Part shown: in pieces, positions 28,040 to 60,412 of the stretch
How the letters are laid out: each line of letters opens with the position of its first letter
Numbering within the stretch: the stretch's first letter is position 1
Assembly: GCA_016707705.1 (NCBI GenBank)
Contig: JADJHD010000020.1
Coordinates: 8,918 to 72,917 of the forward strand
DNA length: 64,000 bases
Direction of reading: 5' to 3'
Source: Bacteroidales bacterium
GTDB lineage: Bacteria; Bacteroidota; Bacteroidia; Bacteroidales; UBA4417
Notes under the pieces: generated by a model
The model's database searches: none
What the model was told of the DNA's origin: nothing
Seen by the model: only the letters and a program-made list of their open reading frames with translations
Translations under genes and position numbers: made by a program

Positions 28040-28130
28040 AATTATGCCAATGAGTTAGTCACATAAAAATTAACTCAATGGCAAGAAAAAAATCATTTTG
28101 AAACCTGAACTAAAAAAGACAACTATTCCC

Positions 28131-29654: not shown

Positions 29655-29830
29655 TGAAGAAGGGGTATCATTACTTACTCTATGAAATTTGCTGGTAATG
29701 AATCAGGTTTTAACTTTCAGAAAGGATTTCACTCAAATCACAGCTAATCTAAATCTCTCAATTGTACAAGAAAACCAAATACATAATAACAAGCAACCAA
29801 TTAGATCAATAACCTTAAAACAAATTAATT

Positions 29831-38479: not shown

Positions 38480-39211
38480 CTACTTAACTTGTATCTCAGC
38501 ATCCTCCAAAATAATCTTAAAGAAATATCCTGCACCGAAATCCTTGTTCAGACTTACCTTGCCTTTAACAGTCAGAATCTGATCTAAAGAAGCTGTATCA
38601 TCGGTAGTAAAAGTAAGGTCAAAATTTCCTGAAAAATCACTTCCATCCTGAATATGAACCCAGTTCTTACCCATAATCATTGGGTTGTATTTAGTAACCT
38701 TACCTGATATGGTTACTACCTGATTTGCATATTGGGTATGATTTTCATAAAGTTCAGCAATTGTTATTCCTCCTTTGGCTTTTGGAACTGATGCATCAAT
38801 CTTTTCCGGGGCTTCCTGCTTTCTCTCTGCTGCAGGAGCAGCTGCGGTTTCATTGCCTGTTAATGGCTGATCACTGATATTCTGGACAAAAAATACGGTT
38901 TCGAAGGTCTTTCCAAGCTCCTTGCTTTCAAAGTTGTTCATCTCCAATGGGTTGGTGTAATAATAAACATCACCTTCCTTTGCTTCACGCTTTGTAACAG
39001 CAATCCAGCTTTCAGCTCCGCCTTCTTCCATCAACAGATAGGTATATTTGGTGGTTTGAAGAATTTCAACCACTTCACCTTTAAACACTCCTTCCGGAAG
39101 TTTTTCCTTTTCCGATTTCTTCTGTGAATTATTCCAGAACGGAACAGAAATAACTACGATACCGAAAACTATAAGTAAAATGGTTATGAGTTTTTTGGAG
39201 TTGATCTTCAT
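38480..39211 (-). CDS. Membrane-anchored protein with two OB-fold-like halves; paralogue of 50587..51360
   Basis: N-terminal TM helix. The C-terminal half ITIAELYENHTQYANQVVTISGKVTKYNPMIMGKNWVHIQDGS...KGKVSLNKDFGAGY aligns with 50587..51360. The pattern resembles bacterial OB-fold (YgiW-like) proteins, but this assignment is weak. Confidence 0.55.
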   Translation of the reverse strand: MKINSKKLITILLIVFGIVVISVPFWNNSQKKSEKEKLPEGVFKGEVVEILQTTKYTYLLMEEGGAESWIAVTKREAKEGDVYYYTNPLEMNNFESKELGKTFETVFFVQNISDQPLTGNETAAAPAAERKQEAPEKIDASVPKAKGGITIAELYENHTQYANQVVTISGKVTKYNPMIMGKNWVHIQDGSDFSGNFDLTFTTDDTASLDQILTVKGKVSLNKDFGAGYFFKIILEDAEIQVK

Positions 39212-39252: not shown

Positions 39253-40869
39253 CTAGAAACGCTTACTAAGGTTCACATAGACATTATTATAATTTTTCCC
39301 TTTTTCAAAAGTTCCTTCATAATTCAATGAACAGGAAAGCTTGCTCATGATGCGCCAGTTAAGTCCCAGTTCGCCCATATGCTGCCTTACAGCTGTTTCC
39401 TGACTTACAAAGGTATAATGTACCATTCTGTATCCCAGATCGGCATATACCTTGCCTTTGAAAATATCACGCGCAAACGACAACCCGTAAATATCACTGT
39501 TCAGATAGGAGGTTTCCATGATGGTCGCTGATAAGGTTGCAGAGGCATTCAGCCATGGGACTGCAGGAAATGTCAGATATCCATAGAGATTCTTACTGGC
39601 TCGTGAATCATTGGTACCGAGCCTGTATCCTCCATTGCATCCCACAGTGAAATGCTTTGTCCTGTAGTTTAACTGAGCATTGTAACCGGTTGTACTTGCA
39701 CTTTCCAGCAATCGCTGAATGAAATCCTTGTAGGTTTCATAGTAGATCACATTTTTTCTCTCGCTATACGACAGTGAAACACTAAATCTCTTTGTCACCC
39801 TGTATCTGACAGAAGCGTAGAGATTTGAGATCCTTGGTGATCTATCGTTCATCAGGATAGAATCCTGGCTGTTAAATACCTTATTATACAAATCCAACTC
39901 CATGGAACCAAAGAGTGTAATGTTCTTAACCGGTGTATTGGAATGCTGTATATAGGCAAATCTTCGGTCAGTGAGACCTGCATTTTTCTGTTCAACAAAT
40001 GCCAGAGATGTTTGGAAGGAACTCAATTTCCCAGAATGCTCATGATTGATATAGCCTCCGTACTGCAGCAAATTGAAGTTGAAACCATAATCCCTTGAAT
40101 CAGGACGACTCCCTGCTATAGCCCCAACAGTAAACTGACCAGCCTTGAATTCGTACTGAAGTCCATCTACTGCACCCATATTGGAAAGCCGTGGATTTAT
40201 TCTTCGTCCGATCCATATAGAGTTTTTGGGGTTGAGAGCATAATTAAAAGCCAGACTGTAGATCTTCAATCCGTTGAACAGATTCTGACTTATCAGATTC
40301 CAATCTCCCAATTTATGCGAGAATGTAACATAGGTTTCTGCGGAAAGCTTGCTCCCTCCAATATTCCTGTAATTGGAAACAAGAGTATAACGCAGCCGCT
40401 CCGATAAATCCGAATTGCTTGAAATACCAGTATAGGAGGCAACTGATAATCTTCCGGAAAAATCAGCTTTCTTTTTAGTTACCTGCACATCTGCTACTGA
40501 ATCCTTCACAATAAGTTTGGTCCTAGTCCCAGGAGTAACTTCTTCAGCAACACTTTCACTTGAAGTAGTAGGAACCAATCCTTTATGGGCCAATGTTTTA
40601 TCCCCAACTTTAAAGGTATTGCCATCCATGGGTGAACCAACACAGGAGATGGAAGATAGTTCTTCAACCTTGATACCGGGAACAAAACTTCCATTCTTAG
40701 AAATAAAGAGGGTATCCCCAGCTTTAAGGTTTTCAGTTGAAGTAAACTTGACATATACATGCTGACCGGTAACGAAAGTTACTGTTCCAACATTATCAGT
40801 ATCAAGTTCCTGGGAAAAGGCATAAACCCCAACCAGCATTAAGATGGCAAAAACTATTAAATGTTTCAT
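39253..40869 (-). CDS. Predicted outer-membrane beta-barrel protein, candidate porin partner of the cytochromes
   Basis: Signal peptide MKHLIVFAILMLVGVYAFSQ. Alternating hydrophobic beta-strand patterns run throughout. The C-terminus ...VYVNLSKRF ends in Phe. It starts 6 nt after the 960-aa cytochrome stops. Confidence 0.6.
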   Translation of the reverse strand: MKHLIVFAILMLVGVYAFSQELDTDNVGTVTFVTGQHVYVKFTSTENLKAGDTLFISKNGSFVPGIKVEELSSISCVGSPMDGNTFKVGDKTLAHKGLVPTTSSESVAEEVTPGTRTKLIVKDSVADVQVTKKKADFSGRLSVASYTGISSNSDLSERLRYTLVSNYRNIGGSKLSAETYVTFSHKLGDWNLISQNLFNGLKIYSLAFNYALNPKNSIWIGRRINPRLSNMGAVDGLQYEFKAGQFTVGAIAGSRPDSRDYGFNFNLLQYGGYINHEHSGKLSSFQTSLAFVEQKNAGLTDRRFAYIQHSNTPVKNITLFGSMELDLYNKVFNSQDSILMNDRSPRISNLYASVRYRVTKRFSVSLSYSERKNVIYYETYKDFIQRLLESASTTGYNAQLNYRTKHFTVGCNGGYRLGTNDSRASKNLYGYLTFPAVPWLNASATLSATIMETSYLNSDIYGLSFARDIFKGKVYADLGYRMVHYTFVSQETAVRQHMGELGLNWRIMSKLSCSLNYEGTFEKGKNYNNVYVNLSKRF

Positions 40870-40875: not shown

Positions 40876-43758
40876 TTAATCGATCCTGATATTGCCGGGT
40901 TTGAAATGATCGCTGTTACCATTAGGATGACAGTTCAGGCAGGCTGCACTGTTATAGGAATATCCGCTAACACCCTGATGATCGTTATTGGTTGATGATT
41001 GAGGGTGGCAGGATGTTGTACAGGTAAATTCTCCAAAATTTGATGGATTTGGATGGCAATCAGAACAAGTATTCCATTCACCGTTATGCTGCCCGGAATA
41101 AATCGGGAAATACTGTGAGTCATGATTGAAGGTCGATGGCTGCCAGGAAGATTGCGTATGGCAATCCTGACAGCTGGTAGGGAATTGAGCAGTTTGATGA
41201 TCAGGGTCGTTAGTCTGGTTATAATTGTTAATATGGCATCCTGCACAGGTGTTTGGAGTAGAATTGTAGTTGCCATTATGACAATCGCCGCATTGGTTTG
41301 CAATCGAAACGTGGGCTCCGGCCAAAACATAATAATTGTTGTGAATTGGGAAAGTAGCTGGTGCCCATCCCGGATTTGTAGTATGACAAGTTGCACATTG
41401 ATTCGGAATGCCTAATGCCTGATGATTGGGATTGGCACTTTGATTATAAGCCGACTGGTGACAACCCTCACAATTGGTAGGCGTATTCGCATAGCCATTC
41501 ACATGGCATAGGCTGCAGTTGGTTATGGAAGCATGAGCCCCGGTAAGTGGATAAACATTGTTATGATTGAATGTTGAAGGCACCCATGCAGTCTGTGAAT
41601 GGCAGCTTTGGCATTCAGTTGAAAACTGTGAAGTCTGATGATTAGGATTCGTGGTTTGGTTATAATCATCGGAATGACATCCAAAACAAGTATTTGGAGT
41701 ACTGGTATAATTCCCCTGATGGCAGGCAGCACAATTTGTAGCAATAGCTGTATGAGCTCCCTGAATGACGTAATAATTGCTGTGAGTCGGGAAACTTGCC
41801 GGCGTCCAGCCCGGACCAGTGGTATGACATTGTGCACAATCACTGGAAATGCCTATTCCATTATGATTTGGATTTGATGTTTGATTATAGTTATTAATAT
41901 GGCAATTGGCACAGACTGTTGTGGTGCCGCTGTACCCATTAGAATGACATGAAGCACAGTCATTGATAGCATGTCCTCCGGTTAATGGAAAATTCGAGCT
42001 TGAATGATTAAAGCTTCCTTCAGATGAACCTGTAGGATGACATTCAAAACAAGCCACACTGTTGTATGCATACCCTCCTACTCCCTGATGTTCATCATCG
42101 GTATCAGCCTGATTGTGTTCATGGCAATCAATGCAACTGTATAATGCATAGTTTGCAGGATTGGTATGACACTCAGAACAGCTGTTCCATTCACCATTGT
42201 GTTTCCCTGAATAAATTGGGAAATATTGTCCATCATGGTTAAAGGTTGAAGGCTTCCATGCTGTTGAATTATGGCAATCCTCACAGGTAGTAGGGAACTG
42301 AGCACTCACATGCGGAGGATCGGTTGATTGGGTAAAATCAGTCTCATGGCATGCAAAGCACGTATTTGGAGTGTTCTGATAATTACCATTATGGCATTTG
42401 GCGCATTCATTAGCTATGGTTAAATGTGCTCCCTCCAGGACATAATAATTGGCATGGGTTGGGAAACCAGCTGGTTTCCATCCCGGATCTGTGGTATGAC
42501 AAGCCTTGCAATCTTCAGAAATGCCGGCTGCTGCATGATTTGGATTTGAAGTTTGATTGAAGTTGTTAATATGACAACTTGAACACTCCATGGATGTGTT
42601 CGAATATCCATTGGTATGACAATCAGTGCATCTGACCGTTACATGTGCCCCGGTTAGCGGAAAATGGGTTGAACTATGATTGAAAGCCCCATCAGTTGAA
42701 CCTGTTGGATGACAAGCATAACATGCAAGTGAGTTGTAATCATACCCGCTTACTCCTCCGTGTTCATCGTCAACCTTGCTTTGCCTGTGTTCATGGCAAT
42801 CCGTACAGCTGAATTGTCCGTAGTCATTGGGATTGGTATGGCATTCTCCGCAACTTTCCCATTCTCCCTTATGATTCCCTGAATAAATCGGGAAATAGGA
42901 TGCATCATGGGTTGTAAAACTGGCTGGTTTCCAACCCGGATCAAGCGAATGGCATAATTTGCAGTCAGTTGAAAAATCAAGTGAAATATGATTGGGATTC
43001 TGTGCAGAAGCATAGTCAGGCTGGTGACAACTGATACATTCATTTGATAAGCCAGCGTATGTGCCAGATGTATGACATTTGGCGCAATCAGTTGTTTCGT
43101 GTCCACCGGTAAGCGGGAAAAAGTTATGGTTCACTCCTGCCCCAGTCCAGGTGAAAGCATTGATATTATGGCACTCTGTACAATTGGTCGAATACTGATT
43201 TGCTATATGATCAGGATGTTTGGCAGCTTCAAAGTTTTGCCTGTGGCAATCATAGCATTCTATTCCCAATGGATCAAATCTGAGTCCTGAGGCTGAGCCT
43301 CCTGCAGATGCAGCAGGAAAAAGGTTAGTGTGACAGCTCTTGCAGTCAGTTGCAGCATGTGCTCCCAACAGTGGAAACCTTCCCTGCTGATGAAGTTGGG
43401 TAACATTACTGACCACCCAGGAATTGGGTGTATGACAGCGGGAACAATCTGGTCCGACTGTCTGCTCATGTACATCAATATGGCACTTATTACATTCTGT
43501 TGGAGCATTTGTAAAATTCATTGCAGCGTGGCAATCCTTGCAGTTTGCTGACTTATGCTGCCCGATCAACGGGAAACTGGTGCTTGAATGATTGAATCCG
43601 ATGGATTTTGCATCCACTTTCCAACTGTCAGTTTTATGACAGTCCATGCAGCTCATCTTAAAGTTCTCACCATGCGGCGACTTCTGCGCAAACAGAGGTG
43701 CAGCTGTAAAAACCCAGCTCAGGATTAGCAGCAATACTAACGATGACAATCTTCGCAT
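40876..43758 (-). CDS. Giant multihaem c-type cytochrome, about 37 haem-binding sites
   Basis: Signal peptide MRRLSSLVLLLILSWVFTAAPLFAQ. I counted 36 CxxCH motifs plus one CxxxCH (CTTSCH) in 960 aa. Internal modules are repeated. Confidence 0.9.
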   Translation of the reverse strand: MRRLSSLVLLLILSWVFTAAPLFAQKSPHGENFKMSCMDCHKTDSWKVDAKSIGFNHSSTSFPLIGQHKSANCKDCHAAMNFTNAPTECNKCHIDVHEQTVGPDCSRCHTPNSWVVSNVTQLHQQGRFPLLGAHAATDCKSCHTNLFPAASAGGSASGLRFDPLGIECYDCHRQNFEAAKHPDHIANQYSTNCTECHNINAFTWTGAGVNHNFFPLTGGHETTDCAKCHTSGTYAGLSNECISCHQPDYASAQNPNHISLDFSTDCKLCHSLDPGWKPASFTTHDASYFPIYSGNHKGEWESCGECHTNPNDYGQFSCTDCHEHRQSKVDDEHGGVSGYDYNSLACYACHPTGSTDGAFNHSSTHFPLTGAHVTVRCTDCHTNGYSNTSMECSSCHINNFNQTSNPNHAAAGISEDCKACHTTDPGWKPAGFPTHANYYVLEGAHLTIANECAKCHNGNYQNTPNTCFACHETDFTQSTDPPHVSAQFPTTCEDCHNSTAWKPSTFNHDGQYFPIYSGKHNGEWNSCSECHTNPANYALYSCIDCHEHNQADTDDEHQGVGGYAYNSVACFECHPTGSSEGSFNHSSSNFPLTGGHAINDCASCHSNGYSGTTTVCANCHINNYNQTSNPNHNGIGISSDCAQCHTTGPGWTPASFPTHSNYYVIQGAHTAIATNCAACHQGNYTSTPNTCFGCHSDDYNQTTNPNHQTSQFSTECQSCHSQTAWVPSTFNHNNVYPLTGAHASITNCSLCHVNGYANTPTNCEGCHQSAYNQSANPNHQALGIPNQCATCHTTNPGWAPATFPIHNNYYVLAGAHVSIANQCGDCHNGNYNSTPNTCAGCHINNYNQTNDPDHQTAQFPTSCQDCHTQSSWQPSTFNHDSQYFPIYSGQHNGEWNTCSDCHPNPSNFGEFTCTTSCHPQSSTNNDHQGVSGYSYNSAACLNCHPNGNSDHFKPGNIRID

Positions 43759-45344
43759 TTGATTTGATCCAGTTTATAGAGTATGAAAGTAACACCTTGC
43801 TGTTCAACAGTTTTATGGCATTTCCCGCAAGGAAGCTTATTATGCTTTCCATCAAGCTTGAACCTGGTATTGTTGTGGTCAAAGCCATCAGCAGGAAGGA
43901 AGGAGGACTGATTATGGCACCTGCTGCAGTCAGAAGTACCATCAATAACAAATTGATTCTGATGTATATCTTTATGGCATGAACTGCAGGATGTCAATAA
44001 TCCGGAGAATCGCTGGCTGTCATGACCTTTTGCCTGCTTGTTGAAATGACAATCGCGGCAGGTCTTTTTCTGGTGGGCTCCCTTTAAGGCAAAACGTGTG
44101 CTGTCGTGATTAAATTGCACCAAACTCCATTTCGAGGGTGTATGGCAATTCTGGCAACCATTAACAGCATAGTACTTTTCACTGATCAAACCCTTGTGAA
44201 TATCGTCATGGCAATCAGCGCATACCTTTCCTATATTCTTGAATTTCCACTTATCGGTTTTCTTGTGACAAGCAAAACATGGTGTTGCAAGATGCGCGCC
44301 CTGCAAGGGATAAATAAGCTGGTGCTTCTCAATTGAATAGGATGATCCGGGAAATCCATTTACTGAGTGGCATTCGGAACAATCAGGTGAAATTTTATTG
44401 CGTGTGAACTGTCCTTCATGATAATCAACATGGCAATCCCTGCAGTTCTTATGATTCAACGGAGTTGTGAGTTTAAGCTTATGGCAGGATTTGCAGTTAG
44501 TATTCTGGTGTTTACCTTCGAGCTTAAAATCAGTTTTGTTATGATCAAATCCCTTTACTCCGCCACCTACAGCAAATGATTCTGTATTATGGCAATCAGC
44601 ACACTTTTGACCGAACTTATTATTATGGACATCCATATGGCAACTGGAGCAGGAGGAGAACTGCAAACCCTTGAACTCCTGATACTTTTGTCCATTCTTG
44701 TTCGAGATCTTATGACATTCAACGCAAGCCACTGACTGATGCTTGCCTGTCAGCTGATATTTTGCCTTCCGATGATCGAATTTGGGTGCAGGCTTAAATT
44801 TTTCGTTGTTATGGCAATCAGCACAATTCGAAGAGAGCGTCTTTTGATGATAATCGGCATGACAAGCCTGGCAATCGGTTTTCAATCCAAGGTAAGTTGT
44901 TTTCTTAGCTTTTAATTTAACATCCTGAATGAACTCCGGCTTATGACAATCCTCACATTTCTTTTTACTGTGAGCTCCGCTCAGGGTATAACCTGTTAAC
45001 TTATGATCAAATTTTGCTTTATCAAATTTAATGATCTGGAAATTAACCCCATGATGATCATTATGACATGCAGCACATTGTTTCGTTTTAACTCCTGCCG
45101 ACGAATGATACCCTTTGTTCTGGTCAATTCTTGTCTTGATGGCTGTATGACAGGCCAGACATTTTGCATTGGTAACTTTTTCGCCAAGTATATGACATTT
45201 CGTGCAGTTCGACATTCCCTCAAGGTGGGAATGCACTTTTGCAAGATCTCCCGGAGAAATCTGAGCAAGAAGTTTTTGATTAGCAATCAATGAGATGATT
45301 GCAATCAATGTAAACTTTAGGAATTTGCTTAAGATTGATTTCAT
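43737..45344 (-). CDS. Multihaem c-type cytochrome, 20 CxxCH
   Basis: Has a signal peptide. 20 CxxCH motifs in 535 aa, set in repeated F(D/N)H..H...L.G.H....C..CH units (c3/c7-like). Its 3' end overlaps the next gene's start by 22 nt. Confidence 0.9.
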   Translation of the reverse strand: MKSILSKFLKFTLIAIISLIANQKLLAQISPGDLAKVHSHLEGMSNCTKCHILGEKVTNAKCLACHTAIKTRIDQNKGYHSSAGVKTKQCAACHNDHHGVNFQIIKFDKAKFDHKLTGYTLSGAHSKKKCEDCHKPEFIQDVKLKAKKTTYLGLKTDCQACHADYHQKTLSSNCADCHNNEKFKPAPKFDHRKAKYQLTGKHQSVACVECHKISNKNGQKYQEFKGLQFSSCSSCHMDVHNNKFGQKCADCHNTESFAVGGGVKGFDHNKTDFKLEGKHQNTNCKSCHKLKLTTPLNHKNCRDCHVDYHEGQFTRNKISPDCSECHSVNGFPGSSYSIEKHQLIYPLQGAHLATPCFACHKKTDKWKFKNIGKVCADCHDDIHKGLISEKYYAVNGCQNCHTPSKWSLVQFNHDSTRFALKGAHQKKTCRDCHFNKQAKGHDSQRFSGLLTSCSSCHKDIHQNQFVIDGTSDCSRCHNQSSFLPADGFDHNNTRFKLDGKHNKLPCGKCHKTVEQQGVTFILYKLDQIKCEDCHR

Positions 45345-45367: not shown

Positions 45368-46701
45368 TTAGTTATGCTTAAGCAAAGCTTCACCGTATTT
45401 GCGGGTGATGATAACCCCGGCCTTCTTTAGGAATTCAATAGGTAGTTCTCCTCCAGCAAATATGAATACCAGATCATTCTTAATCATTATCTCCTCTGCA
45501 TTCTTAATGCCTTTCAGCACTACCGATTCCTTTAGAATATTCACAGGCAAAGTTTCGAAGATGACCTTCAGCTTCCCATCATTCATAGCTTGCTTAATGT
45601 TCTCGGCATTTTTAGGCTTTAACCGGCTAAACACATCACCACGATAGGAAAGCGTAACCTTGTTTTGATCGCATAGCAAAAGTGCGGATTCAATGGCTGA
45701 GTCTCCTCCTCCAACAACCAGGACTTCCTTTCCAGAAATTTCTTCAGGTTCAAGTAAGCGGTATGCTACTTTCTCCATCATTTCTCCCGGGACTCCAAGT
45801 TTCCTGGGAGTTCCCCTTCTGCCTACTGCCAGTAAAACAGTATTTGATGTAAGGATCTTCCCATTTCCGGTTTCGACCCTAAAAACTCCGTTTTCCTGTG
45901 TAATAGACTCTACTTTTGAGTTTTCCCTGATATTAATCCCATTCTTCAATAGGGCTTCATTCCATAAATCGAGAAGCTCAGGTTTGGAGGTTTCAAACAG
46001 CTTAATCTTACCTATAAAGGAAGATCCATTGCTGAAGTCATTACAATTTTCTGCCTTGGGAAAGTGTACACAGTACCTCCAAGAGTATCCTGTTCAAGAG
46101 TGGTGAATCGAAGATTGTGCTTTTTTGCAGTCAGGGAGGCAGAGATTCCTGCAGGCCCCGCTCCCACTATGATGAGGTCAAACTCAGCATGATGGGGCAA
46201 TTTGTGATACTTTGCGATATTTTCAACAGCCTGTTTACCCTGCTCTACAGCATTCTTGATAAGGCCCATTCCTCCCAGTTCACCGGCGATATAAATGCCA
46301 TTGACGTTGGTCTCAAAATTCTGATTGACATGTGGAAGGTCTACACCTCTTTTCTCAGTTCCAATACACAAAGTGATGGCCTGAGTTGGACAAGCATGAA
46401 AGCAGGCTCCATGTCCTATGCATTTTGAGGCATTGATGGTAGTTGCCTTACCATCCTTGATTCCTATGATATCTTTCTCAGGGCAGGCTGACACGCATGC
46501 ACCGGTACGAATGCAGCTATTGATATCAATAACAGGATGAAGTGACACCGGTTCAAACAGGCCTTCCTGTTTCGCCTTATTAATTTTCTCTTCAACAATC
46601 TTCGATTCCCGCTTTTGCTTTCGGAGATATATCCACACAACGAGGATGCAAAAAAGCGCAACTCCTCCATAGATTGCAATTTGCTCAAGGGCAGATTCCA
46701 T
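45368..46701 (-). pseudogene. Membrane-anchored 2x[4Fe-4S] ferredoxin-domain / FAD-NAD(P) pyridine-nucleotide-disulfide-type oxidoreductase, split by a 1-nt frameshift near 46012-46022
   Basis: ORF 46012..46701 carries a TM helix, CIRTGACVSACP and CIGHGACFHACP, and the GxGxxG motif DLIIVGAGPAG. It stops after ...AMDLPL. The next frame reads FIGKIKLFETSKPELLDLWNEALLKNGINIRE and runs straight into ORF 45368..45949, which carries the second Rossmann motif LVVGGGDSAIESA. Confidence 0.8.
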
Positions 46702-46705: not shown

Positions 46706-47575
46706 TTAGAATATCCAGCGGTAACCGAAAGTAATGGTTACTGCTACGTGAATAATCATGATTACAAGCATTACAAGTGCAAATGGCAAATGAGCTACAT
46801 GCCAGTATTTGAATAAGTTTTGCATGGTGGTTAAACGCTCTATCCTATGATTCAGTGATATTTCCGATTTAACGGATTTAATAATGCTTTTCACCTGATC
46901 ATTGGGGACTTGCTTATCTCTAAGGAGTTTCCTGACATTTCGAAGGTTACGTCTCTCCTTTCCGTATTGACGAATTATCCGGACGAAAAAATTCTCATCC
47001 ATTCTCTTTATACCAACCTGAGTCAGTGCCTCTATTTGCCGGGCACTTTCTTCATCCACCTGAACTGCCATCTGAATGGTTGCATTCATTTCACCCTTAA
47101 GTTCACGGATCTCATTCAAACTCAGTGCACGTCCCTCTATACTTCTTGGTATCTGAATATAGATAAACCTTCCAATAATGCCACTGAGGAATACCGCAAC
47201 CATACTCCAGAAGCTAATGGCGACAATACCTCCAAACTTAAAGGAAGTATGGAACAAAACCAGAATCGGACCAAGAGTACAGAGAAAAATGTGAAACTCA
47301 AGCCAATGTTTCAGAATTCCAAGTCGGCCAAGGCGTCTGACTCTTTTTCTGACCATATAAATAAGGACGCCAAATATCATAAAGAGAGATCCAATAATTC
47401 CCACTCCATGTCCCAAACTTCCACTAGGTTTCAGTTCAGAATGGTCAGCGTGAAAGAATCTTTCTTCAAGTCCGGTATTGTAATAGGAGTAACCTTTCTG
47501 AATAAGCAGAAAGAGTGCCGTTGCTACGAGCAGCGACATAATGGCAATGTAAATACCGTGTGTTACCCTTGACAT
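46706..47575 (-). CDS. Polytopic membrane protein with intramembrane His pairs (possible b-haem binding), unknown family
   Basis: Five predicted TM helices. His residues lie inside TM3 (KHWLEFHIFL...LVLFH) and TM5 (WHVAHLPFALVMLVIMIIHV). A ~115-aa charged helical cytoplasmic loop separates them. It is the first gene of the operon. Confidence 0.55.
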   Translation of the reverse strand: MSRVTHGIYIAIMSLLVATALFLLIQKGYSYYNTGLEERFFHADHSELKPSGSLGHGVGIIGSLFMIFGVLIYMVRKRVRRLGRLGILKHWLEFHIFLCTLGPILVLFHTSFKFGGIVAISFWSMVAVFLSGIIGRFIYIQIPRSIEGRALSLNEIRELKGEMNATIQMAVQVDEESARQIEALTQVGIKRMDENFFVRIIRQYGKERRNLRNVRKLLRDKQVPNDQVKSIIKSVKSEISLNHRIERLTTMQNLFKYWHVAHLPFALVMLVIMIIHVAVTITFGYRWIF

Positions 47576-48677: not shown

Positions 48678-49535
48678 ATGGAAAAAGAGAAAAAGTCCGT
48701 AGCAGGTTGGTCAGTGGTAGCAGCTGTGTTCCTTACAGGTTTCAAGCTTATTGTCGGGCTATTTACCGGAAGCTTGGGAATCCTGTCGGAAGCATTGCAT
48801 TCCGGCCTTGACCTGGTTGCAGCTGTTATAACCTATTTTTCTGTTAGAATCTCCGATAAACCAGCAGATATAAAACACCCATACGGACATGGAAAGGTTG
48901 AGAATCTTTCTGCCCTGCTCGAAACATTGCTATTGATAATTACATGCTTTTGGATAATCTATGAAGCTGTTGAGCGACTTGCGTCCGGGAAAACACATAT
49001 CGAGGTTAATATCTGGAGTTATATTGTTGTCGTGACATCCATCGTGGTGGACTATACCAGGTCCCGGGCATTGTACAGAACGGCCCGAAAATACAACAGT
49101 CAGGCTCTTGAAGCGGATGCATTGCATTTCTCAACAGATATCTGGAGCTCTTCCGTAGTATTGATAGGCCTGATCTGCGCCAACTTTGGCTACCATATAG
49201 CTGATCCAATTGCAGCACTAGGCGTTGCAGCAATAGTGCTGGTTGTTTCTTTCAAACTGGGAGAAAGAGCAGTAAATGTACTTTTAGATACAAGTCCAGC
49301 TCCGGCGAGGGAAGAAATAGCTGCTTTATTGGACGACACAACAGGAATATTAGCATACAATGACCTTAAAGTCAGGGTATCAGGTGCTGATACATTTGTA
49401 AATGTAACCCTGAAATTTGAACCTTCACTTAGCCTGGAAGCTGCACACAGGCTTTCTGATACTATTGAAGAACAGATTCATCAAAGGATTGAGCGCTGCA
49501 ATGTTCATATCCATTATGAACCAGCATCAAGTTAA
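48678..49535 (+). CDS. Cation diffusion facilitator (CDF) family divalent-metal efflux transporter
   Basis: Six TM helices with CDF motifs (SEALHSGLDL, HFSTDIWSS) and a C-terminal cytoplasmic domain; 285 aa. Confidence 0.8.
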   Translation: MEKEKKSVAGWSVVAAVFLTGFKLIVGLFTGSLGILSEALHSGLDLVAAVITYFSVRISDKPADIKHPYGHGKVENLSALLETLLLIITCFWIIYEAVERLASGKTHIEVNIWSYIVVVTSIVVDYTRSRALYRTARKYNSQALEADALHFSTDIWSSSVVLIGLICANFGYHIADPIAALGVAAIVLVVSFKLGERAVNVLLDTSPAPAREEIAALLDDTTGILAYNDLKVRVSGADTFVNVTLKFEPSLSLEAAHRLSDTIEEQIHQRIERCNVHIHYEPASS

Positions 49536-49562
49536 ATTTTTCGATAACTAAAATTCTGCAAA

Positions 49563-50270
49563 ATGAGAACTTACGTTTGGAGTCTGCCAACCAGAATATT
49601 TCATTGGTTGCTCGTAATTGGAGTTGTACTGGCTTATGTGCTTGGAGAGGAAGAGGAGCTTTTAAATCTGCATTCCTCCATCGGATATGCCCTGGGTATT
49701 TTAATGCTGTTCCGAATTCTTTGGGGTCTTGCAGGACCTTTATATTCAAGATTCCGGGATTTCCCCATCAGCTTGAAAAATCTGATGTTCTTTTTCAAAA
49801 CCTTAGGTAATAGAAAATCCGGGTTCATTGGTCATAATCCGGCAGCCTCACTGATCATGCTGGCAATTATACTGGATGTTTTGTGCATTGTTGGAACGGG
49901 AATAATAATGATGTCATCAAGAGGAGAAGGTCTCTTCGGAAATTTCACCCCGGGATTTGACCCTGAAACCTATAAGGAATTGCATGAAGTATTTGTCAAC
50001 TTCCTGATAATCATAATTATTATGCACCTTTTGGGACTGGCAACCGACTTCTTTTTCCATCCCAAGGACAGAACAATACTTTCAATGTTCAATGGTTATA
50101 AAAATCTTGAAGGACCTAAAGTAAAAGTGAACAGTATCCAATGGATACTTGCAATAATCGGAATAACTGCAGCATTTACAATAATACCCTATTCACTGCT
50201 AAACCAGCAAATCAATCCTGAAAATAACCAATCTGAACAGTCAGAATTTGAAGAAATGGATGAGGATTGA
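49563..50270 (+). CDS. Cytochrome b (b561 / Ni-Fe-hydrogenase b-type subunit family) membrane protein
   Basis: The N-terminus WSLPTRIFHWLLVIGVVLAYVLG is typical of this family. Four TM helices carry conserved His residues. Confidence 0.7.
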   Translation: MRTYVWSLPTRIFHWLLVIGVVLAYVLGEEEELLNLHSSIGYALGILMLFRILWGLAGPLYSRFRDFPISLKNLMFFFKTLGNRKSGFIGHNPAASLIMLAIILDVLCIVGTGIIMMSSRGEGLFGNFTPGFDPETYKELHEVFVNFLIIIIIMHLLGLATDFFFHPKDRTILSMFNGYKNLEGPKVKVNSIQWILAIIGITAAFTIIPYSLLNQQINPENNQSEQSEFEEMDED

Positions 50271-50335
50271 TTAACTGCATTACAATAGTGCAATCTTCAG
50301 GGAAACTTACAAACTTGTGGGATTGCTAACATTCT

Positions 50336-50374
50336 ACCGGTCAGAATTAATAGTGGATAATAATTCTGGCCGGT
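50336..50374 (+). terminator. Hairpin terminator candidate after the cytochrome b gene
   Basis: 14-bp stem ACCGGTCAGAATTA / TAATTCTGGCCGGT with one G-U pair and a 10-nt loop. The tail is T/A-rich. Confidence 0.55.
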
Positions 50375-50526
50375 TTAATTCAATGAAGGAACAGCGGCAT
50401 AGTATAGGCTGTCAGAAATTAGACCTGCGAAAATTGAGGTCAGGACATTTTGAGCACTCACCTTATTAATGAAATGCTAAAATCTTCCAGCCGACTTATC
50501 TAATATGTCACATATATAATACTGAC

Positions 50527-50534
50527 TATATTTG
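50527..50534 (+). promoter_or_regulatory. -7 box (TAnnTTTG)
   Basis: TATATTTG lies 53 nt upstream of the ATG at 50587. Confidence 0.4.
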
Positions 50535-50586
50535 CAGTTCTAAACCATGCTCATACTACTAATCCAATCAACTGCATACTTCTGCT

Positions 50587-51360
50587 ATGAAAACATCAGA
50601 AAAAAACAAGAGTCAAAATAAACGTATTTTACTGATAACCATGAGCCTGGCTTTAGTTATCCTTACATTTTCATGTAGTCATGGAAGTACCGCCTCAATC
50701 AATCTCAAGGAGAAGGGAATATTTCAGGCAACTGTTAGTGAAGTACTGCAATCAAAAGGATACACCTATTTGAAGGTTCAGGAGGAGAAAACGGAGAAAT
50801 GGCTTGTCGTTCCAACTATCAATATCAGCATCGCATCAAAGGTTTATTACAGAGAAGGTTTCAGGATGACAGAGTTTTCAAGCAAGGAGTTGAACAGGTC
50901 TTTCAGTGAGGTATACTTTCTTGAAACGATTGCAACCGATCCTGCACAATTATCAATTGATACTTTGCCTGTTCCCTCTAAATCTGTGCATCAGGAAATG
51001 AATTCGCCTGCAGCACAGGAAGATACTGTTATCAACAATCCGAATCAGGTTCCAATTTCTGACGGCAACAAGATTACTATTGAAAGTATATACAGAAATA
51101 AAGAAACTCTAAACGGTAAACTTGTGGTGATAAGTGGTAAAGTGACAAAATTCAATGAACGCATCATGGGAAAAAACTGGATCCATATTCAGGATGGCAG
51201 CAGCTTTGACAAATATAATGACCTCACTGTCACCACCAGGGAAACAGTAAAAGTCGGAGAAACCGTAAAACTCCAGGGGAAGTTGGTGTTAAACCAGGAT
51301 TTCGGATACGGATATTCCTATGAAATACTTCTCGAGGAAGCCATAATAATTACACAATAG
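50587..51360 (+). CDS. Lipoprotein with two OB-fold-like halves; paralogue of 38480..39211
   Basis: Lipobox ...LTFSC. Both halves align with 38480..39211, for example ISGKVTKFNERIMGKNWIHIQDGS...QGKLVLNQDFGYGY. Confidence 0.55.
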   Translation: MKTSEKNKSQNKRILLITMSLALVILTFSCSHGSTASINLKEKGIFQATVSEVLQSKGYTYLKVQEEKTEKWLVVPTINISIASKVYYREGFRMTEFSSKELNRSFSEVYFLETIATDPAQLSIDTLPVPSKSVHQEMNSPAAQEDTVINNPNQVPISDGNKITIESIYRNKETLNGKLVVISGKVTKFNERIMGKNWIHIQDGSSFDKYNDLTVTTRETVKVGETVKLQGKLVLNQDFGYGYSYEILLEEAIIITQ

Positions 51361-51409: not shown

Positions 51410-52015
51410 ATGAGCAAACTATTAGGAATACTATCAGTAGCTGGCTTTTGTCTATTGATAGCAACACTTACTTCCTGTCAGGACAATAGTTCAGGTAAGA
51501 AGAACGATGTTGCAGATAATCAAAACGTTAAACAGCTTTCAACTCTTTCAGTCGAAAATCCCGAAGAAATGGAAAAAGCATTGGTTAATGACTCTCTTAA
51601 TACAGAAATAAGGTTAAGGCTAGCAGCCCATTACTATTCGGCCCAAGACCTGAATAAAGCATTATACCATAATTTAACCGTCAACAGGATTTCTCCCGAC
51701 AATATGGCTGCCACTTTTAACCTGGGCAATATTTATTATGATTTGAATCAGAATGAACCGGCTATCCGATTCTATGAGAAATTCCTGACTGTTGAGAAGA
51801 CCAATTGCAACGTTCGCTGCGATCTGGCAACCTGCTATATGAGATTAAACAAGCTGGATAAGGCAGAGAAATTGTTAAAGGAAAATACTTCAATTGATTT
51901 CAATCATCCCCAGTCACATTATAACCTGTCAATGGTACTAAAGCAGATGGGAAAAACTGCAGAAGCTGAAAAGGAAATGAAAATTTATCAGGATATGAGT
52001 TCGAAAAGCAATTGA
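51410..52015 (+). CDS. TPR-repeat lipoprotein
   Basis: Lipobox LTSC. It carries 3-4 TPR-like units (LGNIYYDLNQNEPAIRFYEKFL, LATCYMRLNKLDKAEKLL, NLSMVLKQMGKTAEAEKE). Confidence 0.7.
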   Translation: MSKLLGILSVAGFCLLIATLTSCQDNSSGKKNDVADNQNVKQLSTLSVENPEEMEKALVNDSLNTEIRLRLAAHYYSAQDLNKALYHNLTVNRISPDNMAATFNLGNIYYDLNQNEPAIRFYEKFLTVEKTNCNVRCDLATCYMRLNKLDKAEKLLKENTSIDFNHPQSHYNLSMVLKQMGKTAEAEKEMKIYQDMSSKSN

Positions 52016-52414: not shown

Positions 52415-52429
52415 TGGCGATTGATTTGA
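52415..52429 (+). promoter_or_regulatory. Sigma-54-like -24/-12 element TGGC-N7-TTGA upstream of the NHL / 12-haem genes
   Basis: TGGCGATTGATTTGA has correct -24/-12 spacing. It overlaps the listed TTG start at 52426, which argues for the ATG at 52516. Confidence 0.35.
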
Positions 52430-52515
52430 TAAATCGTAGCATGAAATTTGCACAATACCCTGAGCACTATAAAAAACTCATTACTACAAGTGTTTACTGC
52501 CCAACCTCAGAATAC

Positions 52516-55208: not shown

Positions 55209-55235
55209 ACTTGGGTCAAATAAGGAATAATCAGG

Positions 55236-56681: not shown

Positions 56682-56719
56682 AAAAGAGATTGAATTGATT
56701 TAAAAACTGCTTAAGATAG

Positions 56720-58132: not shown

Positions 58133-58448
58133 ACACCCTGGGTTATTTCACCCACAATCAATTGGGTCATATAGCCCAGTCTTTATCCATTTTTTTAAGG
58201 GAATCTGCAGAATAATCTTCAAACAGGGTCCAATAACTTTATAAAAGCAATTGCGAATAACCTCTGAAACACCTATTGGCAAAAGAAAAATGCTGAAACG
58301 CCTTTTTCTGCTTTCAAATTCTATTCAAGTCAAAGGTCAAATGCAGCTTTAAAGGCAACAGTCAAAAAACAGCTAATTTTATTTGAACGCTACATACAAT
58401 GTACGTATATAAACCATAAGAACTTAATTGTTAATCACATACATTTTG

Positions 58449-58463
58449 TGGCATATAATTTGA
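58449..58463 (+). promoter_or_regulatory. Sigma-54-like -24/-12 element TGGCAT-N5-TTGA upstream of the tetrahaem gene
   Basis: TGGCATATAATTTGA has correct spacing and lies 47 nt upstream of the ATG at 58510. It sits directly downstream of the sigma-54 activator gene. Confidence 0.4.
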
Positions 58464-58509
58464 AAACAGCAGGCAACAACGCTAGTATCTCTCCTAAAAA
58501 CCTCACACA

Positions 58510-59130: not shown

Positions 59131-59152
59131 GCTAAGCTTTAAAAAAATCTTT

Positions 59153-59182
59153 AAAAGGGCGAAGTTTCCTTCGCCCTTTTTT
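59153..59182 (+). terminator. Strong rho-independent terminator after the tetrahaem gene
   Basis: GGGCGAAG-TTTC-CTTCGCCC stem-loop flanked by AAAA and TTTTTT. Confidence 0.85.
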
Positions 59183-60376: not shown

Positions 60377-60412
60377 TTACAGTCTCTGCCATAAAACTCA
60401 CAATACACTACA

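What the first reader, a model, noticed from the sequence alone, without database searches (positions are those of the whole stretch)
40876..43758. 960-aa cytochrome with about 37 haem sites and an internally repeated module
Seen: I counted 36 CxxCH and one CxxxCH by hand, about one haem per 26 residues, behind a classical signal peptide. One block occurs three times, near aa 290, 505 and 878: FPIYSG.H.GEW..C..CH.NP......C..CH(E/P)....(D)(D/N)(E/D)H.GV.GY.YNS.AC..CHP.G. Between the copies lie repeats of the type C..CH..GY......C..CHI.N(F/Y)NQT..P(N/D)H. This pattern indicates growth by internal duplication.

Established: cytochromes with more than 25 haems are rare and are mostly reported from metal-reducing Desulfuromonadia and some archaea.

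Inference: the protein could act as a long periplasm-spanning or barrel-threaded haem wire. It has no T9SS sorting domain and no lipobox, so any surface exposure would have to go through the adjacent barrel.
Basis: partly seen in the sequence, partly recalled or inferred. Interest (0 to 1): 0.75.

Follow-up and report, generated by a model that had tools for sequence, protein, structure and literature searches.

The report
Modular 37-haem cytochrome wire, Bacteroidales
This gene really encodes a secreted protein with 37 haem-binding sites built from twelve repeated three-haem units, and it is one mid-sized member of a large, noticed but uncharacterised Bacteroidota gene cluster that probably carries electrons from inside the cell to the outside.

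Summary
The ORF lies on the minus strand at 40876-43758 and encodes 960 aa. It has 36 CxxCH and one CxxxCH, and every cysteine sits in a haem motif. Its 79 His are enough for bis-His ligation throughout.

The architecture is signal peptide, one haem, then 12 triheme modules of about 74 aa in three subtypes. DNA copies are at most 75% identical, so this is not an assembly collapse.

The protein is not rare. Orthologues in Bacteroidales, Lentimicrobiaceae, Saprospiraceae and Ignavibacteriales carry 16-67 haems, nearly always 3n+1, with conserved ends and a variable middle.

The gene sits in a conserved six-gene cluster:
- a membrane protein with a di-haem-b His pattern
- an FeS-flavoprotein, frameshifted in this window
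- an invariant 20-haem cytochrome
- this variable cytochrome
- a roughly 22-strand outer-membrane barrel
- an OB-fold protein

The most likely role is the long haem wire of a porin-cytochrome-type conduit for extracellular electron transfer. This is inferred, not shown.

A 2026 paper reports a gigantic Lentimicrobium porin-cytochrome cluster with adjacent 61- and 20-haem cytochromes, matching this architecture, so I file this as a new member of a known but uncharacterised kind.

The parts
40876..43758 (-). 37-haem c-type cytochrome gene (960 aa): signal peptide, one haem, then 12 triheme modules
   Evidence: ORF and translation. Motif scan: 36 CxxCH and 1 CxxxCH. Pfam Cytochrome_C7 106.9 bits and Cytochrom_c3_2 77 bits. 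Module HMM finds 12 full and 1 partial copy.
43687..43758 (-). Sec signal peptide (aa 1-24, MRRLSSLVLLLILSWVFTAAPLFA|QK), no Cys
   Evidence: By inspection and a hydrophobic segment at aa 6-24. The N-terminus is conserved in orthologues as MR(R/K)LSS...AQ(K/S)SPHG.
42226..43686 (-). Conserved N-terminal core: single haem (aa 37) plus modules X-Y-B-A-B-C (aa 25-511)
   Evidence: Module grammar across orthologues begins X-Y-B-A-B-C in most complete proteins. These modules are 62-72% identical to their best-matching modules in P0007, the positional counterpart for five of the six.
41338..42222 (-). Variable middle: modules A-B-C-B (aa 513-807). This is the region where orthologues gain or lose ABC, BC, B or C units.
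   Evidence: Grammar comparison. The closest relative, P0007, has 17 modules and 52 haems against 12 and 37 here.
40879..41334 (-). Conserved C-terminal cap: modules C-A (aa 809-960), ending in a short tail after the last haem
   Evidence: Almost all orthologues end ...C-A. These modules are 77-80% identical to the last two modules of P0007.
41005..41022 (-). CxxxCH site (CTTSCH, aa 913-918), haem 2 of the last A module
   Evidence: The same TC(T/A)(T/S)(S/A)CHPQ variant recurs at this position of A modules in about 45 other species. Counting it restores 3n+1.
43737..45344 (-). Partner 20-haem cytochrome (535 aa, Lys-rich, pI about 9), overlapping the 37-haem gene by 22 nt
   Evidence: 20 CxxCH. 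It matches the triheme-module HMM (E 3e-43, 7 domains). It has exactly 20 haems in nearly all syntenic loci.
39253..40869 (-). Outer-membrane beta-barrel protein (538 aa): signal peptide, small N-terminal beta domain (aa 27-94), disordered linker, barrel of about 22 strands, C-terminal Phe
   Evidence: AlphaFold2 mean pLDDT 77.9. Foldseek matches only large outer-membrane barrels: FimD usher, OccK, TonB-dependent receptors, and MtrB at rank 44. No Pfam or NCBIfam family. More than 1800 homologues and 1366 clusters at 50% identity.
38480..39211 (-). 243-aa protein with an N-terminal hydrophobic anchor or signal and a weak OB-fold match; last gene of the cluster
   Evidence: Weak Pfam tRNA_anti-like match only. 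Found directly downstream of the barrel in about half of the loci and upstream of the cluster in others. A paralogue lies at 50587-51360.
45368..46701 (-). Membrane-anchored FeS-flavoprotein: N-terminal TM helix, ferredoxin-like domain, then a TrxR/FNR-like FAD and NAD(P)-binding domain. In this window a -1 frameshift near 46010-46016 splits it into two ORFs.
   Evidence: Pfam Fer4 families and Pyr_redox_3/2 on the two halves. A single ORF of about 444 aa in 57 of 58 related loci. Frameshift read directly: TTA TAG GTA where relatives encode L-Y-G-K.
46706..47575 (-). 289-aa five-TM membrane protein with invariant His pairs H95/H109 (TM3) and H262/H276 (TM5); putative di-haem b transmembrane electron carrier; first gene of the cluster
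   Evidence: No significant Pfam or PDB match. His56, 95, 109, 259, 262 and 276 are conserved in 98-100% of 52 orthologues. TM segments from hydropathy. More than 7300 homologues, all unnamed.

Best explanation
The ORF encodes a Sec-exported c-type cytochrome with 37 covalently bound haems, all probably bis-His ligated. It is built as one N-terminal haem plus twelve triheme modules of about 74 aa. It is the length-variable component of a six-gene operon conserved in Bacteroidota.

The proposed path has four steps, all inferred from domain content, topology and synteny:
1. A membrane-anchored cytoplasmic flavoprotein takes electrons from NAD(P)H and passes them through FAD to its FeS clusters.
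2. A five-helix membrane protein carries them across the inner membrane on two b-haems, held by two His pairs.
3. The basic 20-haem cytochrome collects them in the periplasm.
4. The acidic (3n+1)-haem cytochrome, 37 haems here, acts as a long wire that docks to or threads the roughly 22-strand outer-membrane barrel and delivers electrons to extracellular acceptors such as Fe(III) minerals, humic substances or partner cells.

Both ends of the wire are conserved while the middle expands and contracts by whole modules. This suggests fixed contacts at the two ends and a spacer whose length is tuned by evolution.

Shown here: the motif count, the modular architecture, the 3n+1 rule, the synteny, the barrel prediction and the His conservation. 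Inferred: haem occupancy, the direction of electron flow, the location of each cytochrome and contact with the barrel.
For: Motifs and composition:
- 36 CxxCH and 1 CxxxCH; all Cys lie in haem motifs.
- 79 His against the 74 needed for bis-His ligation; only 5 Met.
- Six conserved His per module.

Modularity:
- 12 modules in subtypes A, B and C.
- Orthologues next to the barrel carry 16-67 haems, and 57 of 64 complete ones obey 3n+1.
- 100 of the 120 database homologues also obey it.
- The conserved grammar is X-Y-B-A-B-C...(B)C-A with a variable middle.

Synteny:
- In about 58 loci with enough flank, the order is the TM protein, a single-ORF FeS-flavoprotein, the 20-haem cytochrome, the variable cytochrome and the barrel, with the OB-fold protein alongside in about half.
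- The same order occurs in Saprospiraceae (L001), Ignavibacteriales (L082) and the closest relative (L083).
- Genes are separated by 41 nt or less, or overlap.

Other components:
- Barrel: pLDDT 78, about 22 strands, C-terminal Phe; structural matches only to large outer-membrane barrels.
- TM protein: H95/H109 and H262/H276 are each spaced by 13 residues on TM3 and TM5 and are conserved in 98-100% of 52 orthologues. The positive-inside rule puts one pair near each membrane face.
- Flavoprotein: an N-terminal TM helix followed by a basic stretch, then Fer4 and Pyr_redox_3 domains with GxGxxG and GGGDSA motifs and no redox-active CxxC.

Literature:
- Novel porin-cytochrome clusters were reported in lake Bacteroidetes, and a 51-haem cytochrome on an unbinned contig (PMC6344600).
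- Many-haem cytochromes were reported in Saprospiraceae (PMC11495043).
- Source names of the related MAGs point to anoxic lake water, groundwater and sludge.
Against: - There is no experimental evidence for any member of this family: no expression, haem occupancy, localisation or phenotype data.
- The AlphaFold2 model of the 37-haem protein is unusable (mean pLDDT 57, pTM 0.25). A linear wire shape is therefore assumed, not seen.
- Neither cytochrome has a lipobox or a T9SS domain, so there is no independent signal for surface exposure. Both could stay in the periplasm.
- The barrel has no detectable sequence relation to MtrB or the Geobacter porins. Its best structural matches are ushers and substrate channels with low TM-scores of 0.3-0.45.
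- The TM protein matches no cytochrome b family above threshold (DUF4405, E 0.05) and has no solved relative.
- The ferredoxin-like domain has only six conserved Cys.
- In this window the flavoprotein gene is frameshifted. If that is real, the proposed cytoplasmic feed is broken in this organism.
Confidence: 0.6

Rival explanations
1. Periplasmic electron store ('capacitor'). The 20- and 37-haem proteins stay in the periplasm and buffer tens of electrons during redox fluctuations. The barrel and the other genes do something else, for example import or export of a soluble redox shuttle.
For: Both cytochromes have only Sec signals, with no lipobox or T9SS domain. Haem number varies widely, from 16 to 67, which would scale storage capacity. 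The authors of PMC11495043 suggest capacitor-like functions alongside electron transfer for the Saprospiraceae proteins.
Against: A store does not need conserved, distinct N- and C-terminal modules with a variable spacer. It also does not need strict adjacency to a large outer-membrane barrel in about 58 of 58 informative loci. Storage and conduction are not mutually exclusive.
Confidence: 0.15
2. Inward electron flow. The conduit takes electrons from extracellular Fe(II), reduced humics, a cathode or a partner cell and passes them to periplasmic or membrane acceptors.
For: Haem chains are reversible. Homologous porin-cytochrome systems work in both directions (Mtr versus Mto/Pio; discussed in PMC6344600 and PMC5566968). 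The source names of the related MAGs include sites that I take, from my own knowledge, to be iron-rich or ferruginous lakes, such as Lac Pavin and the Experimental Lakes Area.
Against: The operon encodes a cytoplasmic NAD(P)-linked flavoprotein and no quinone-linked or oxidase partner. Pushing electrons uphill from Fe(II) to NAD(P)+ through this route would need an energy input for which no gene is present. The relatives named in the records are Bacteroidales, which I take from general knowledge to be fermentative heterotrophs, and the window carries a SusC/D polysaccharide-use locus.
Confidence: 0.1
3. Exported wire. The barrel with its N-terminal periplasmic domain acts as a dedicated, usher-like translocon that moves the folded, thin cytochrome out of the cell. 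There it works as a free or surface-tethered extracellular nanowire of variable length.
For: The top structural matches of the barrel are FimD and PapC ushers (E 6e-10 to 1e-7). It has a separate N-terminal domain on a flexible linker. The cytochrome is very lean at 25 residues per haem, acidic, and 30% Asn+Ser+Thr, unlike the basic 20-haem partner. The freely variable length argues that it is not confined to the width of the periplasm.
Against: TM-scores to ushers are low (0.32-0.45), and generic barrels score similarly. No plug, C-terminal usher domains or chaperone gene are present. No polymerisation or anchoring signal was found.
Confidence: 0.1
4. Non-functional or artefactual locus. The gene is a relic or an assembly product, and the operon is dead in this organism.
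For: The flavoprotein gene upstream carries a -1 frameshift that creates a TAG stop, whereas 57 of 58 relatives have an intact gene.
Against: The 2.9-kb cytochrome ORF is intact. All 37 motifs and the distal His are conserved, and its modules are 62-84% identical to their best-matching modules in the nearest relative, mostly the positional counterparts. DNA repeats are too diverged to have been collapsed. A single-base indel is a common sequencing error.
Confidence: 0.04

Closest known systems
Bacteroidota 'giant porin-multihaem cytochrome cluster' reported only from metagenomes (Lentimicrobium MAG with adjacent 61- and 20-haem cytochromes, PMC13013709; novel porin-cytochrome clusters in lake Bacteroidetes, PMC6344600; many-haem Saprospiraceae cytochromes, PMC11495043)
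   Same: The gene order matches: a 20-haem cytochrome, a giant cytochrome, then a barrel. The taxon is the same phylum. Loci from Lentimicrobiaceae MAGs (L007, L012, L021, L024, L025) are syntenic with the window and share homologues of the cluster proteins. No member has been characterised.
   Different: This copy has 37 haems rather than 61. The papers do not describe the triheme-module grammar, the 3n+1 rule, the conserved CxxxCH variant, or the two upstream genes (the di-haem-b-like membrane protein and the FeS-flavoprotein) found here. I did not compare directly with the published MAG's sequence.
MtrCAB of Shewanella (and MtoAB/PioAB)
   Same: It probably works like this system. A lean, bis-His multihaem chain is encoded next to a large outer-membrane barrel and presumably carries electrons across the outer membrane.
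   Different: There is no family membership. The DmsE/MtrA model TIGR03508 scores 28.9 bits against a cutoff of 192.2. The barrel matches no MtrB model and aligns to MtrB only generically (rank 44, TM 0.34). There is no lipoprotein MtrC equivalent. This system has 20 + 37 haems rather than 10 + 10. The inner-membrane partner is not a CymA or NapC type.
GSU1996-type 'nanowire' cytochromes of Geobacter, built from concatenated c7-type triheme domains (PDB 3OV0; wire shape and origin by c7 duplication as summarised in PMC11492766)
   Same: A single polypeptide made of tandem triheme units of about 75 aa. Pfam Cytochrome_C7 and Cytochrom_c3_2 score above threshold. The module profile gives a weak hit to 3OV0 (E 1e-5).
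   Different: TIGR04257 (nanowire_3heme) gives no match for the 37-haem protein. From my own knowledge, GSU1996 domains have one His-Met haem each; here no Met is conserved and there are six His per module. This protein has 12 modules, and relatives up to 22, against 4. The genomic context with a barrel and an inner-membrane module is different.
Geobacter porin-cytochrome clusters (OmaB-OmbB-OmcB, ExtABCD, ExtEFG, ExtHIJKL)
   Same: An operon that combines a porin-like protein with two multihaem cytochromes. There is a very weak resemblance between the barrel's N-terminus and ExtJ (E 0.003).
   Different: All Ext and Omc model scores fall far below their cutoffs: ExtJ 18.1 against 52.5, ExtN and ExtO about 34 against 200. 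There is no lipoprotein cytochrome. Haem counts are much larger.
NADPH oxidase / ferric-reductase type transmembrane electron transfer (for the two upstream genes only)
   Same: Two His pairs, each spaced by 13 residues on two TM helices, sit beside an FAD and NAD(P)-binding dehydrogenase. The logic is the same: electrons move from cytoplasmic NAD(P)H across the membrane on two b-haems. The spacing in NOX proteins is from my own knowledge.
   Different: No Pfam ferric-reductase or cytochrome b family is matched. The dehydrogenase is a separate protein of the TrxR-like fold and carries an extra ferredoxin-like domain. Haem b binding is untested.

Membership tests
Bacteroidota giant porin-cytochrome cluster (Lentimicrobium type, PMC13013709) | Two adjacent multihaem cytochrome genes, one with 20 haem sites and one much larger | tested here: met
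   43737-45344 has 20 CxxCH. 40876-43758 has 36 CxxCH and 1 CxxxCH. The two genes overlap by 22 nt.
Bacteroidota giant porin-cytochrome cluster (Lentimicrobium type, PMC13013709) | Porin-like outer-membrane barrel encoded directly beside the cytochromes | tested here: met
   The 538-aa product of 39253-40869 is predicted as a barrel of about 22 strands, pLDDT 78. It starts 6 nt after the cytochrome gene's stop.
Bacteroidota giant porin-cytochrome cluster (Lentimicrobium type, PMC13013709) | Homology and synteny with loci from Lentimicrobiaceae and other Bacteroidota | tested here: met
   tblastn with all six window proteins finds the same order in about 58 loci, including Lentimicrobiaceae L007, L012, L021, L024 and L025. 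I did not compare with the exact MAG of the paper.
Bacteroidota giant porin-cytochrome cluster (Lentimicrobium type, PMC13013709) | Large cytochrome built as 1 + 3n haems from triheme modules (a feature defined here, not in the literature) | tested here: met
   37 = 1 + 12x3. 57 of 64 complete orthologues and 100 of 120 database homologues obey 3n+1.
MtrCAB / MtoAB porin-cytochrome complex | Periplasmic decahaem of the MtrA/DmsE family (TIGR03508, cutoff 192.2 bits) | tested here: not met
   28.9 bits for the 37-haem protein and 39.7 bits for the 20-haem protein.
MtrCAB / MtoAB porin-cytochrome complex | MtrB-family 26-strand porin | tested here: not met
   No Pfam or NCBIfam match. The model has about 22 strands. 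MtrB (6r2q_B) is only rank 44, with TM 0.34/0.29.
MtrCAB / MtoAB porin-cytochrome complex | Extracellular lipoprotein decahaem (MtrC/OmcA type) | tested here: inconclusive
   No lipobox in either cytochrome. Pfam PF22113 scores 55.9 bits against a cutoff of 30, but no single stretch is significant, so the hit is probably driven by the haem motifs.
c7-type multidomain 'nanowire' cytochromes (GSU1996 family) | Match to the c(7)-type triheme domain model TIGR04257 (cutoff 40 bits) | tested here: not met
   No hit at E <= 0.01 for the 37-haem protein, and 21 bits for the 20-haem protein. The module profile against 3OV0 gives E 1e-5, and against PpcA E >= 0.13.
c7-type multidomain 'nanowire' cytochromes (GSU1996 family) | Tandem triheme domains of about 75 residues | tested here: met
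   Twelve modules of 65-85 aa. Pfam PF14522 scores 106.9 bits against a cutoff of 24.8.
c7-type multidomain 'nanowire' cytochromes (GSU1996 family) | One His-Met ligated haem per domain (from my own knowledge of the GSU1996 structure) | tested here: not met
   Only 5 Met in 960 aa, with at most one in any module (two modules, m1 and m5). Each module has at least six His.
c7-type multidomain 'nanowire' cytochromes (GSU1996 family) | c7 fold and extended, wire-like haem arrangement | not testable with these tools
   The AlphaFold2 model without haems has pLDDT 57 and pTM 0.25. No haem-aware predictor was available.
Geobacter Pcc/Ext clusters | Matches to NCBIfam Ext or Omc equivalog models above their cutoffs | tested here: not met
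   ExtJ 18.1 against 52.5; ExtN 33.9 and ExtO 34.4 against 200; GSU2203 19.9 against 325.
Ferric-reductase / NOX-like or cytochrome b561-like di-haem membrane proteins (for the 289-aa protein) | Two conserved His pairs on two TM helices, positioned to bind one haem near each membrane face | tested here: met
   H95/H109 and H262/H276 are conserved in 98-100% of 52 orthologues. TM segments come from hydropathy.
Ferric-reductase / NOX-like or cytochrome b561-like di-haem membrane proteins (for the 289-aa protein) | Sequence membership in a known cytochrome b or ferric-reductase Pfam family | tested here: not met
   The only hit is DUF4405 at E 0.05 and 14.5 bits, against a cutoff of 26.7. There is no PDB relative.

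The most novel reading that the evidence does not exclude
The six-gene operon may be a previously undescribed, self-contained electron conduit across the whole cell envelope, specific to Bacteroidota and bypassing the quinone pool. A NOX-like pair (an FNR-type FeS-flavoprotein plus a new di-haem b membrane protein) would feed cytoplasmic NAD(P)H electrons directly into a 20-haem periplasmic cytochrome. From there they would enter a modular (3n+1)-haem wire whose length, 16 to 67 haems, is tuned by gain and loss of whole triheme modules. The wire would reach the outside through a new family of 22-strand barrels. This would give fermentative Bacteroidales an extracellular electron sink.
Probability: 0.3. 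Interest if true: 0.8.

Novelty: new member of a known kind. Interest (0 to 1): 0.5.

Why it matters
Bacteroidota are abundant polymer degraders in anoxic lakes, sediments, groundwater, sludge and bioelectrochemical reactors. They are usually treated as plain fermenters.

At least 537 species-representative genomes carry this barrel. In essentially every locus examined it sits beside a 20-haem and a (3n+1)-haem cytochrome. If the cluster is an extracellular electron-transfer conduit, a large and overlooked guild could dump electrons onto iron minerals, humic matter or partner cells. That would affect carbon, iron and methane budgets.

For protein science, the family is a natural series of single-chain haem wires from 16 to 67 haems with fixed ends. 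This makes it a good test bed for how conduction scales with length. The upstream genes also suggest a testable route from NAD(P)H that bypasses quinones.

Tried and rejected
- AlphaFold2 on the whole 37-haem protein with a 46-sequence alignment gave mean pLDDT 57 and pTM 0.25. I drew no shape or length from it and ran no fold search on it.
- phmmer of the protein against PDB sequences found nothing at E <= 0.01. A 12-module profile gave only weak, motif-centred hits: HmcA 2e-10, GSU1996 1e-5, MtrC 5e-5, MtrA 6e-4. No solved relative can be named.
- A profile of the 289-aa membrane protein against the PDB gave nothing meaningful. Its homologue search returned more than 7300 proteins, and all 120 listed are unnamed or uninformatively named.
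- The sigma-70 promoter and terminator scan of the operon gave counts no higher than in shuffled sequence. Bacteroidota promoters are in any case not covered by this scan.
- An exact look-up of the window's own protein in public assemblies found no record, so I could not name the source organism. The closest context is JGI metagenome contig L083.
- I considered an enzyme role (a reductase with an open haem site) and rejected it. There are enough conserved His for bis-His ligation of all haems, and there is no CxxCK or other catalytic motif.
- I considered collapsed-repeat misassembly and rejected it.
- I considered T9SS or lipoprotein surface targeting and rejected it.

Full report
**1. Observation**

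The ORF at 40876-43758 is on the minus strand and encodes 960 aa. All 74 cysteines belong to these motifs. There are 79 His and only 5 Met.

In 20,000 shuffles of the protein's own, already Cys- and His-rich, composition the mean was 0.46 CxxCH and the maximum 5. The N-terminus is a Sec-type signal (hydrophobic segment at aa 6-24, LFA|QK) without a Cys. Pfam finds no T9SS C-terminal domain. The count, the density of 25.9 residues per haem, the signal peptide and the absence of a lipobox or T9SS tail are therefore all confirmed.

**2. Internal architecture**

Haem spacing repeats as 35/15/25 residues. Cutting on that period gives one N-terminal haem followed by twelve triheme modules of 65-85 aa. 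Each has at least six His, and three non-motif His positions are conserved across the modules: before haem 1, after haem 2 and after haem 3. [quoted passage not shown]

The modules fall into five types:
- A: m4, m7 and m12, 60-68% identical.
- B: m3, m5, m8 and m10.
- C: m6, m9 and m11.
- X and Y: two unique N-terminal modules.

The order is X-Y-B-A-B-C-A-B-C-B-C-A. A profile built from the modules recovers 12 full copies and a partial one at the single N-terminal haem.

At the DNA level the copies are only 60-75% identical, with spacings of 672 nt (A-B-C), 441 nt (B-C) and 1113 nt. Tandem Repeats Finder reports nothing. Internal duplication is confirmed, but it is old, and a collapsed-repeat assembly artefact is very unlikely.

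**3. The protein is one of many**

A search of 5.8 billion proteins returned more than 5000 matches. Among the top 120, those that carry names are almost all named as Bacteroidota: Saprospiraceae, Bacteroidales, Chitinophagales, Lewinellaceae and Ignavibacteriales. They carry 34-67 CxxCH, with a median of 61. The window's protein is therefore a mid-to-small member.

In 64 complete orthologues taken from species-representative genomes, total haem motifs (CxxCH, CxxxCH and Cx4CH) range from 16 to 67. The total equals 3n+1 in 57 of those cases, and in 100 of the 120 database hits.

Annotating the modules with type-specific HMMs gives a grammar:
- A conserved start, haem-X-Y-B-A-B-C.
- A conserved end, (B)-C-A.
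- A middle that varies by whole ABC, BC, B or C units.
- The smallest common form is X-Y-B-A-B-C-A, with 22 haems.

The nearest relative, P0007 (61% identity by BLASTP), has 17 modules and 52 haems. The window's modules are 62-84% identical to their best-matching modules there, mostly the positional counterparts. They are only 46-68% identical to their own paralogues. The duplications therefore predate the split, and later change is by gain or loss of whole modules.

The odd CxxxCH is not a one-off. The variant TC(T/A)(T/S)(S/A)CHPQ occupies haem 2 of A modules in about 45 other species, and it must be counted to obtain 3n+1. This argues for a conserved, functional site.

**4. Genomic context**

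The gene is the fourth of six co-directional genes between 47575 and 38480. They are separated by 41 nt or less, or overlap.

- **289-aa membrane protein (46706-47575).**
  - It has five hydrophobic segments and no Pfam family.
  - H56, H95, H109, H259, H262 and H276 are conserved in 98-100% of 52 orthologues.
  - H95/H109 on TM3 and H262/H276 on TM5 are each 13 residues apart.
  - By the positive-inside rule, one His of each pair lies near each membrane face. This is the classic signature of a transmembrane di-haem b carrier. That reading is an inference.
- **FeS-flavoprotein (45368-46701).**
  - It has an N-terminal TM helix, a ferredoxin-like domain and a TrxR/FNR-like domain that binds FAD and NAD(P).
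  - It has no redox-active CxxC.
  - It is a single ORF of about 444 aa in 57 of 58 related loci.
  - In the window a one-base deletion splits it: TTA TAG GTA where relatives read L-Y-G-K.
- **20-haem cytochrome (43737-45344).** It is Lys-rich with pI about 9 and is built from related modules. It has exactly 20 haems in nearly every locus.
- **37-haem cytochrome, the subject of the finding.** It has pI 5.9 and is 30% Asn+Ser+Thr.
- **538-aa protein (39253-40869).**
  - AlphaFold2 (mean pLDDT 78) gives a small N-terminal beta domain, a disordered linker and a barrel of about 22 strands ending in Phe.
  - Foldseek returns only large outer-membrane barrels: FimD and PapC ushers, OccK channels, TonB-dependent receptors, and MtrB at rank 44. 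TM-scores are low.
  - The family has no Pfam or NCBIfam model. It comprises 1366 clusters at 50% identity and occurs in at least 537 species genomes.
- **243-aa protein (38480-39211).** It is OB-fold-like and present in about half of the loci.

The same order occurs in about 58 loci with enough flanking sequence. It is also found in Saprospiraceae, in Ignavibacteriales and in the closest relative, where even the neighbouring genes match.

**5. Mechanism**

The best-supported reading is a porin-cytochrome-type conduit for extracellular electron transfer. Both termini of the (3n+1)-haem protein are conserved and its middle varies in length. That fits a wire with fixed contacts at each end, for example the 20-haem partner at one end and the barrel or the external acceptor at the other. 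The free variation in length argues that at least part of it is not confined to the periplasm.

The two upstream genes suggest that electrons enter from cytoplasmic NAD(P)H through FAD and FeS clusters, and cross the inner membrane on two b-haems. That logic resembles NOX and ferric reductases and bypasses quinones.

None of this is demonstrated. Haem occupancy, localisation, direction of flow and barrel contact are all inferences. The haem-free AlphaFold2 model of the cytochrome was too poor to use (pLDDT 57). The main rivals are a periplasmic electron store, inward electron uptake, export of the wire through an usher-like barrel, and a dead locus given the frameshift.

**6. Comparison with known systems**

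- **MtrCAB and the Geobacter Pcc/Ext clusters.** By function the closest analogues, but every membership test by sequence fails. TIGR03508 scores 28.9 bits against a cutoff of 192.2, and the Ext models score far below their cutoffs. There is no MtrB-family match and no lipoprotein cytochrome.
- **GSU1996-type cytochromes.** By construction the closest. These are concatenated c7-type triheme domains, described as wire-like in PMC11492766. However, TIGR04257 does not match, there is no His-Met haem, and similarity to 3OV0 is weak (E 1e-5).
- **The metagenomic cluster.** This is the family it appears to belong to, and it is known only from metagenomic reports.
  - Novel porin-cytochrome clusters were reported in lake Bacteroidetes, and a 51-haem cytochrome on an unbinned contig (PMC6344600).
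  - 'Undescribed' many-haem cytochromes dominate in Saprospiraceae (PMC11495043).
  - A Lentimicrobium MAG carries a 'gigantic' porin-cytochrome cluster with adjacent 61- and 20-haem cytochromes and no synteny to characterised systems (PMC13013709).
  - The window is syntenic with Lentimicrobiaceae loci of that architecture and shares homologues of the cluster proteins.

**7. Verdict**

The duplication inference is right. The rarity claim is outdated for this phylum.

The finding is a new member of a known but uncharacterised kind. What this analysis adds:
- the 3n+1 modular grammar with fixed ends
- the conserved CxxxCH variant
- the invariant 20-haem partner
- the barrel model
- the two upstream genes that suggest an NAD(P)H-fed route

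I score interest as moderate (0.5). The strongest reading, a quinone-independent conduit across the whole envelope in fermentative Bacteroidota, would be of high interest, but I give it about 0.3.

Noticed in passing
window 46005-46020 (minus strand), within 45368-46701: A one-base deletion gives ...CCT TTA TAG GTA AGA... where 57 of 58 relatives encode P-L-Y-G-K. It splits the Fer4/FAD oxidoreductase into two ORFs (46012-46701 and 45368-45949). This is either a sequencing error or a real inactivation of the operon's second gene.
   Followed up: partly
window 52426-63908 (+ strand): A second multihaem locus. It contains two NHL-repeat proteins (52426-53538, 59255-60376) and cytochromes with 12, 4, 5 and 9 haem motifs (53535-55208, 58510-59130, 60413-61000, 62991-63908). 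It also holds a histidine kinase and a sigma-54 response regulator (55236-58132) and a 661-aa protein with no family (61003-62988). In total the window carries about 87 haem motifs.
   Followed up: partly
window 48678-51360 (+ strand): A CDF cation-efflux gene (48678-49535), a cytochrome b561 (49563-50270) and a 257-aa paralogue (36% identity) of the operon's last gene (50587-51360) lie divergently upstream of the cluster. The CDF and b561 pair occupies the same position in the closest related contig, L083.
   Followed up: partly
window 40636-40644 (minus strand; barrel protein aa 76-78): The barrel's N-terminal domain carries a C-V-C motif that is conserved in at least 90% of 33 relatives. 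The window's protein reads C-V-G, so it lacks the second Cys.
   Followed up: no
window 46390-46515 (minus strand; oxidoreductase aa 63-104): The ferredoxin-like domain has two C-x5-C-x3-C-P motifs, so only six invariant Cys instead of the canonical eight. Thr and His occupy the positions of the missing Cys. This suggests 3Fe-4S or non-Cys-ligated clusters.
   Followed up: partly
window 40879-40920 and the C-termini of orthologues: After the last haem, most orthologues keep a short tail of 10-20 residues. It is often G-x-x-G-K-M-M...R-x-N; here it is GNSDHFKPGNIRID. It could be a docking strand.
   Followed up: no
L001 17457-20585: In a Saprospiraceae genome, a fused ResB-CcsA (System II cytochrome c maturation) gene lies directly after the cluster. 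No such gene was seen among the ORFs of 150 aa or more that I scanned in the window.
   Followed up: no
L043 11717-15262; L057 5350-7524: Some relatives carry a further giant cytochrome, of 45 or 28 haems, downstream of the barrel. The cluster can therefore hold three multihaem genes.
   Followed up: no
L082 5503-6111: The Ignavibacteriales version of the cluster has an extra TPR gene between the membrane protein and the oxidoreductase. It gives a faint CcmH/CycH-like TPR hit. A TPR protein with a similar weak hit also lies at window 51410-52015.
   Followed up: no
window 10481-12307, 22709-32602: The surroundings are typical of a Bacteroidota chromosome. They include an ECF sigma and anti-sigma pair with a SusC/SusD pair (22709-29654) and two proteins with T9SS C-terminal sorting domains (10481-12307, 29831-32602). 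The organism therefore has T9SS cargo, but the cytochrome is not among it.
   Followed up: partly
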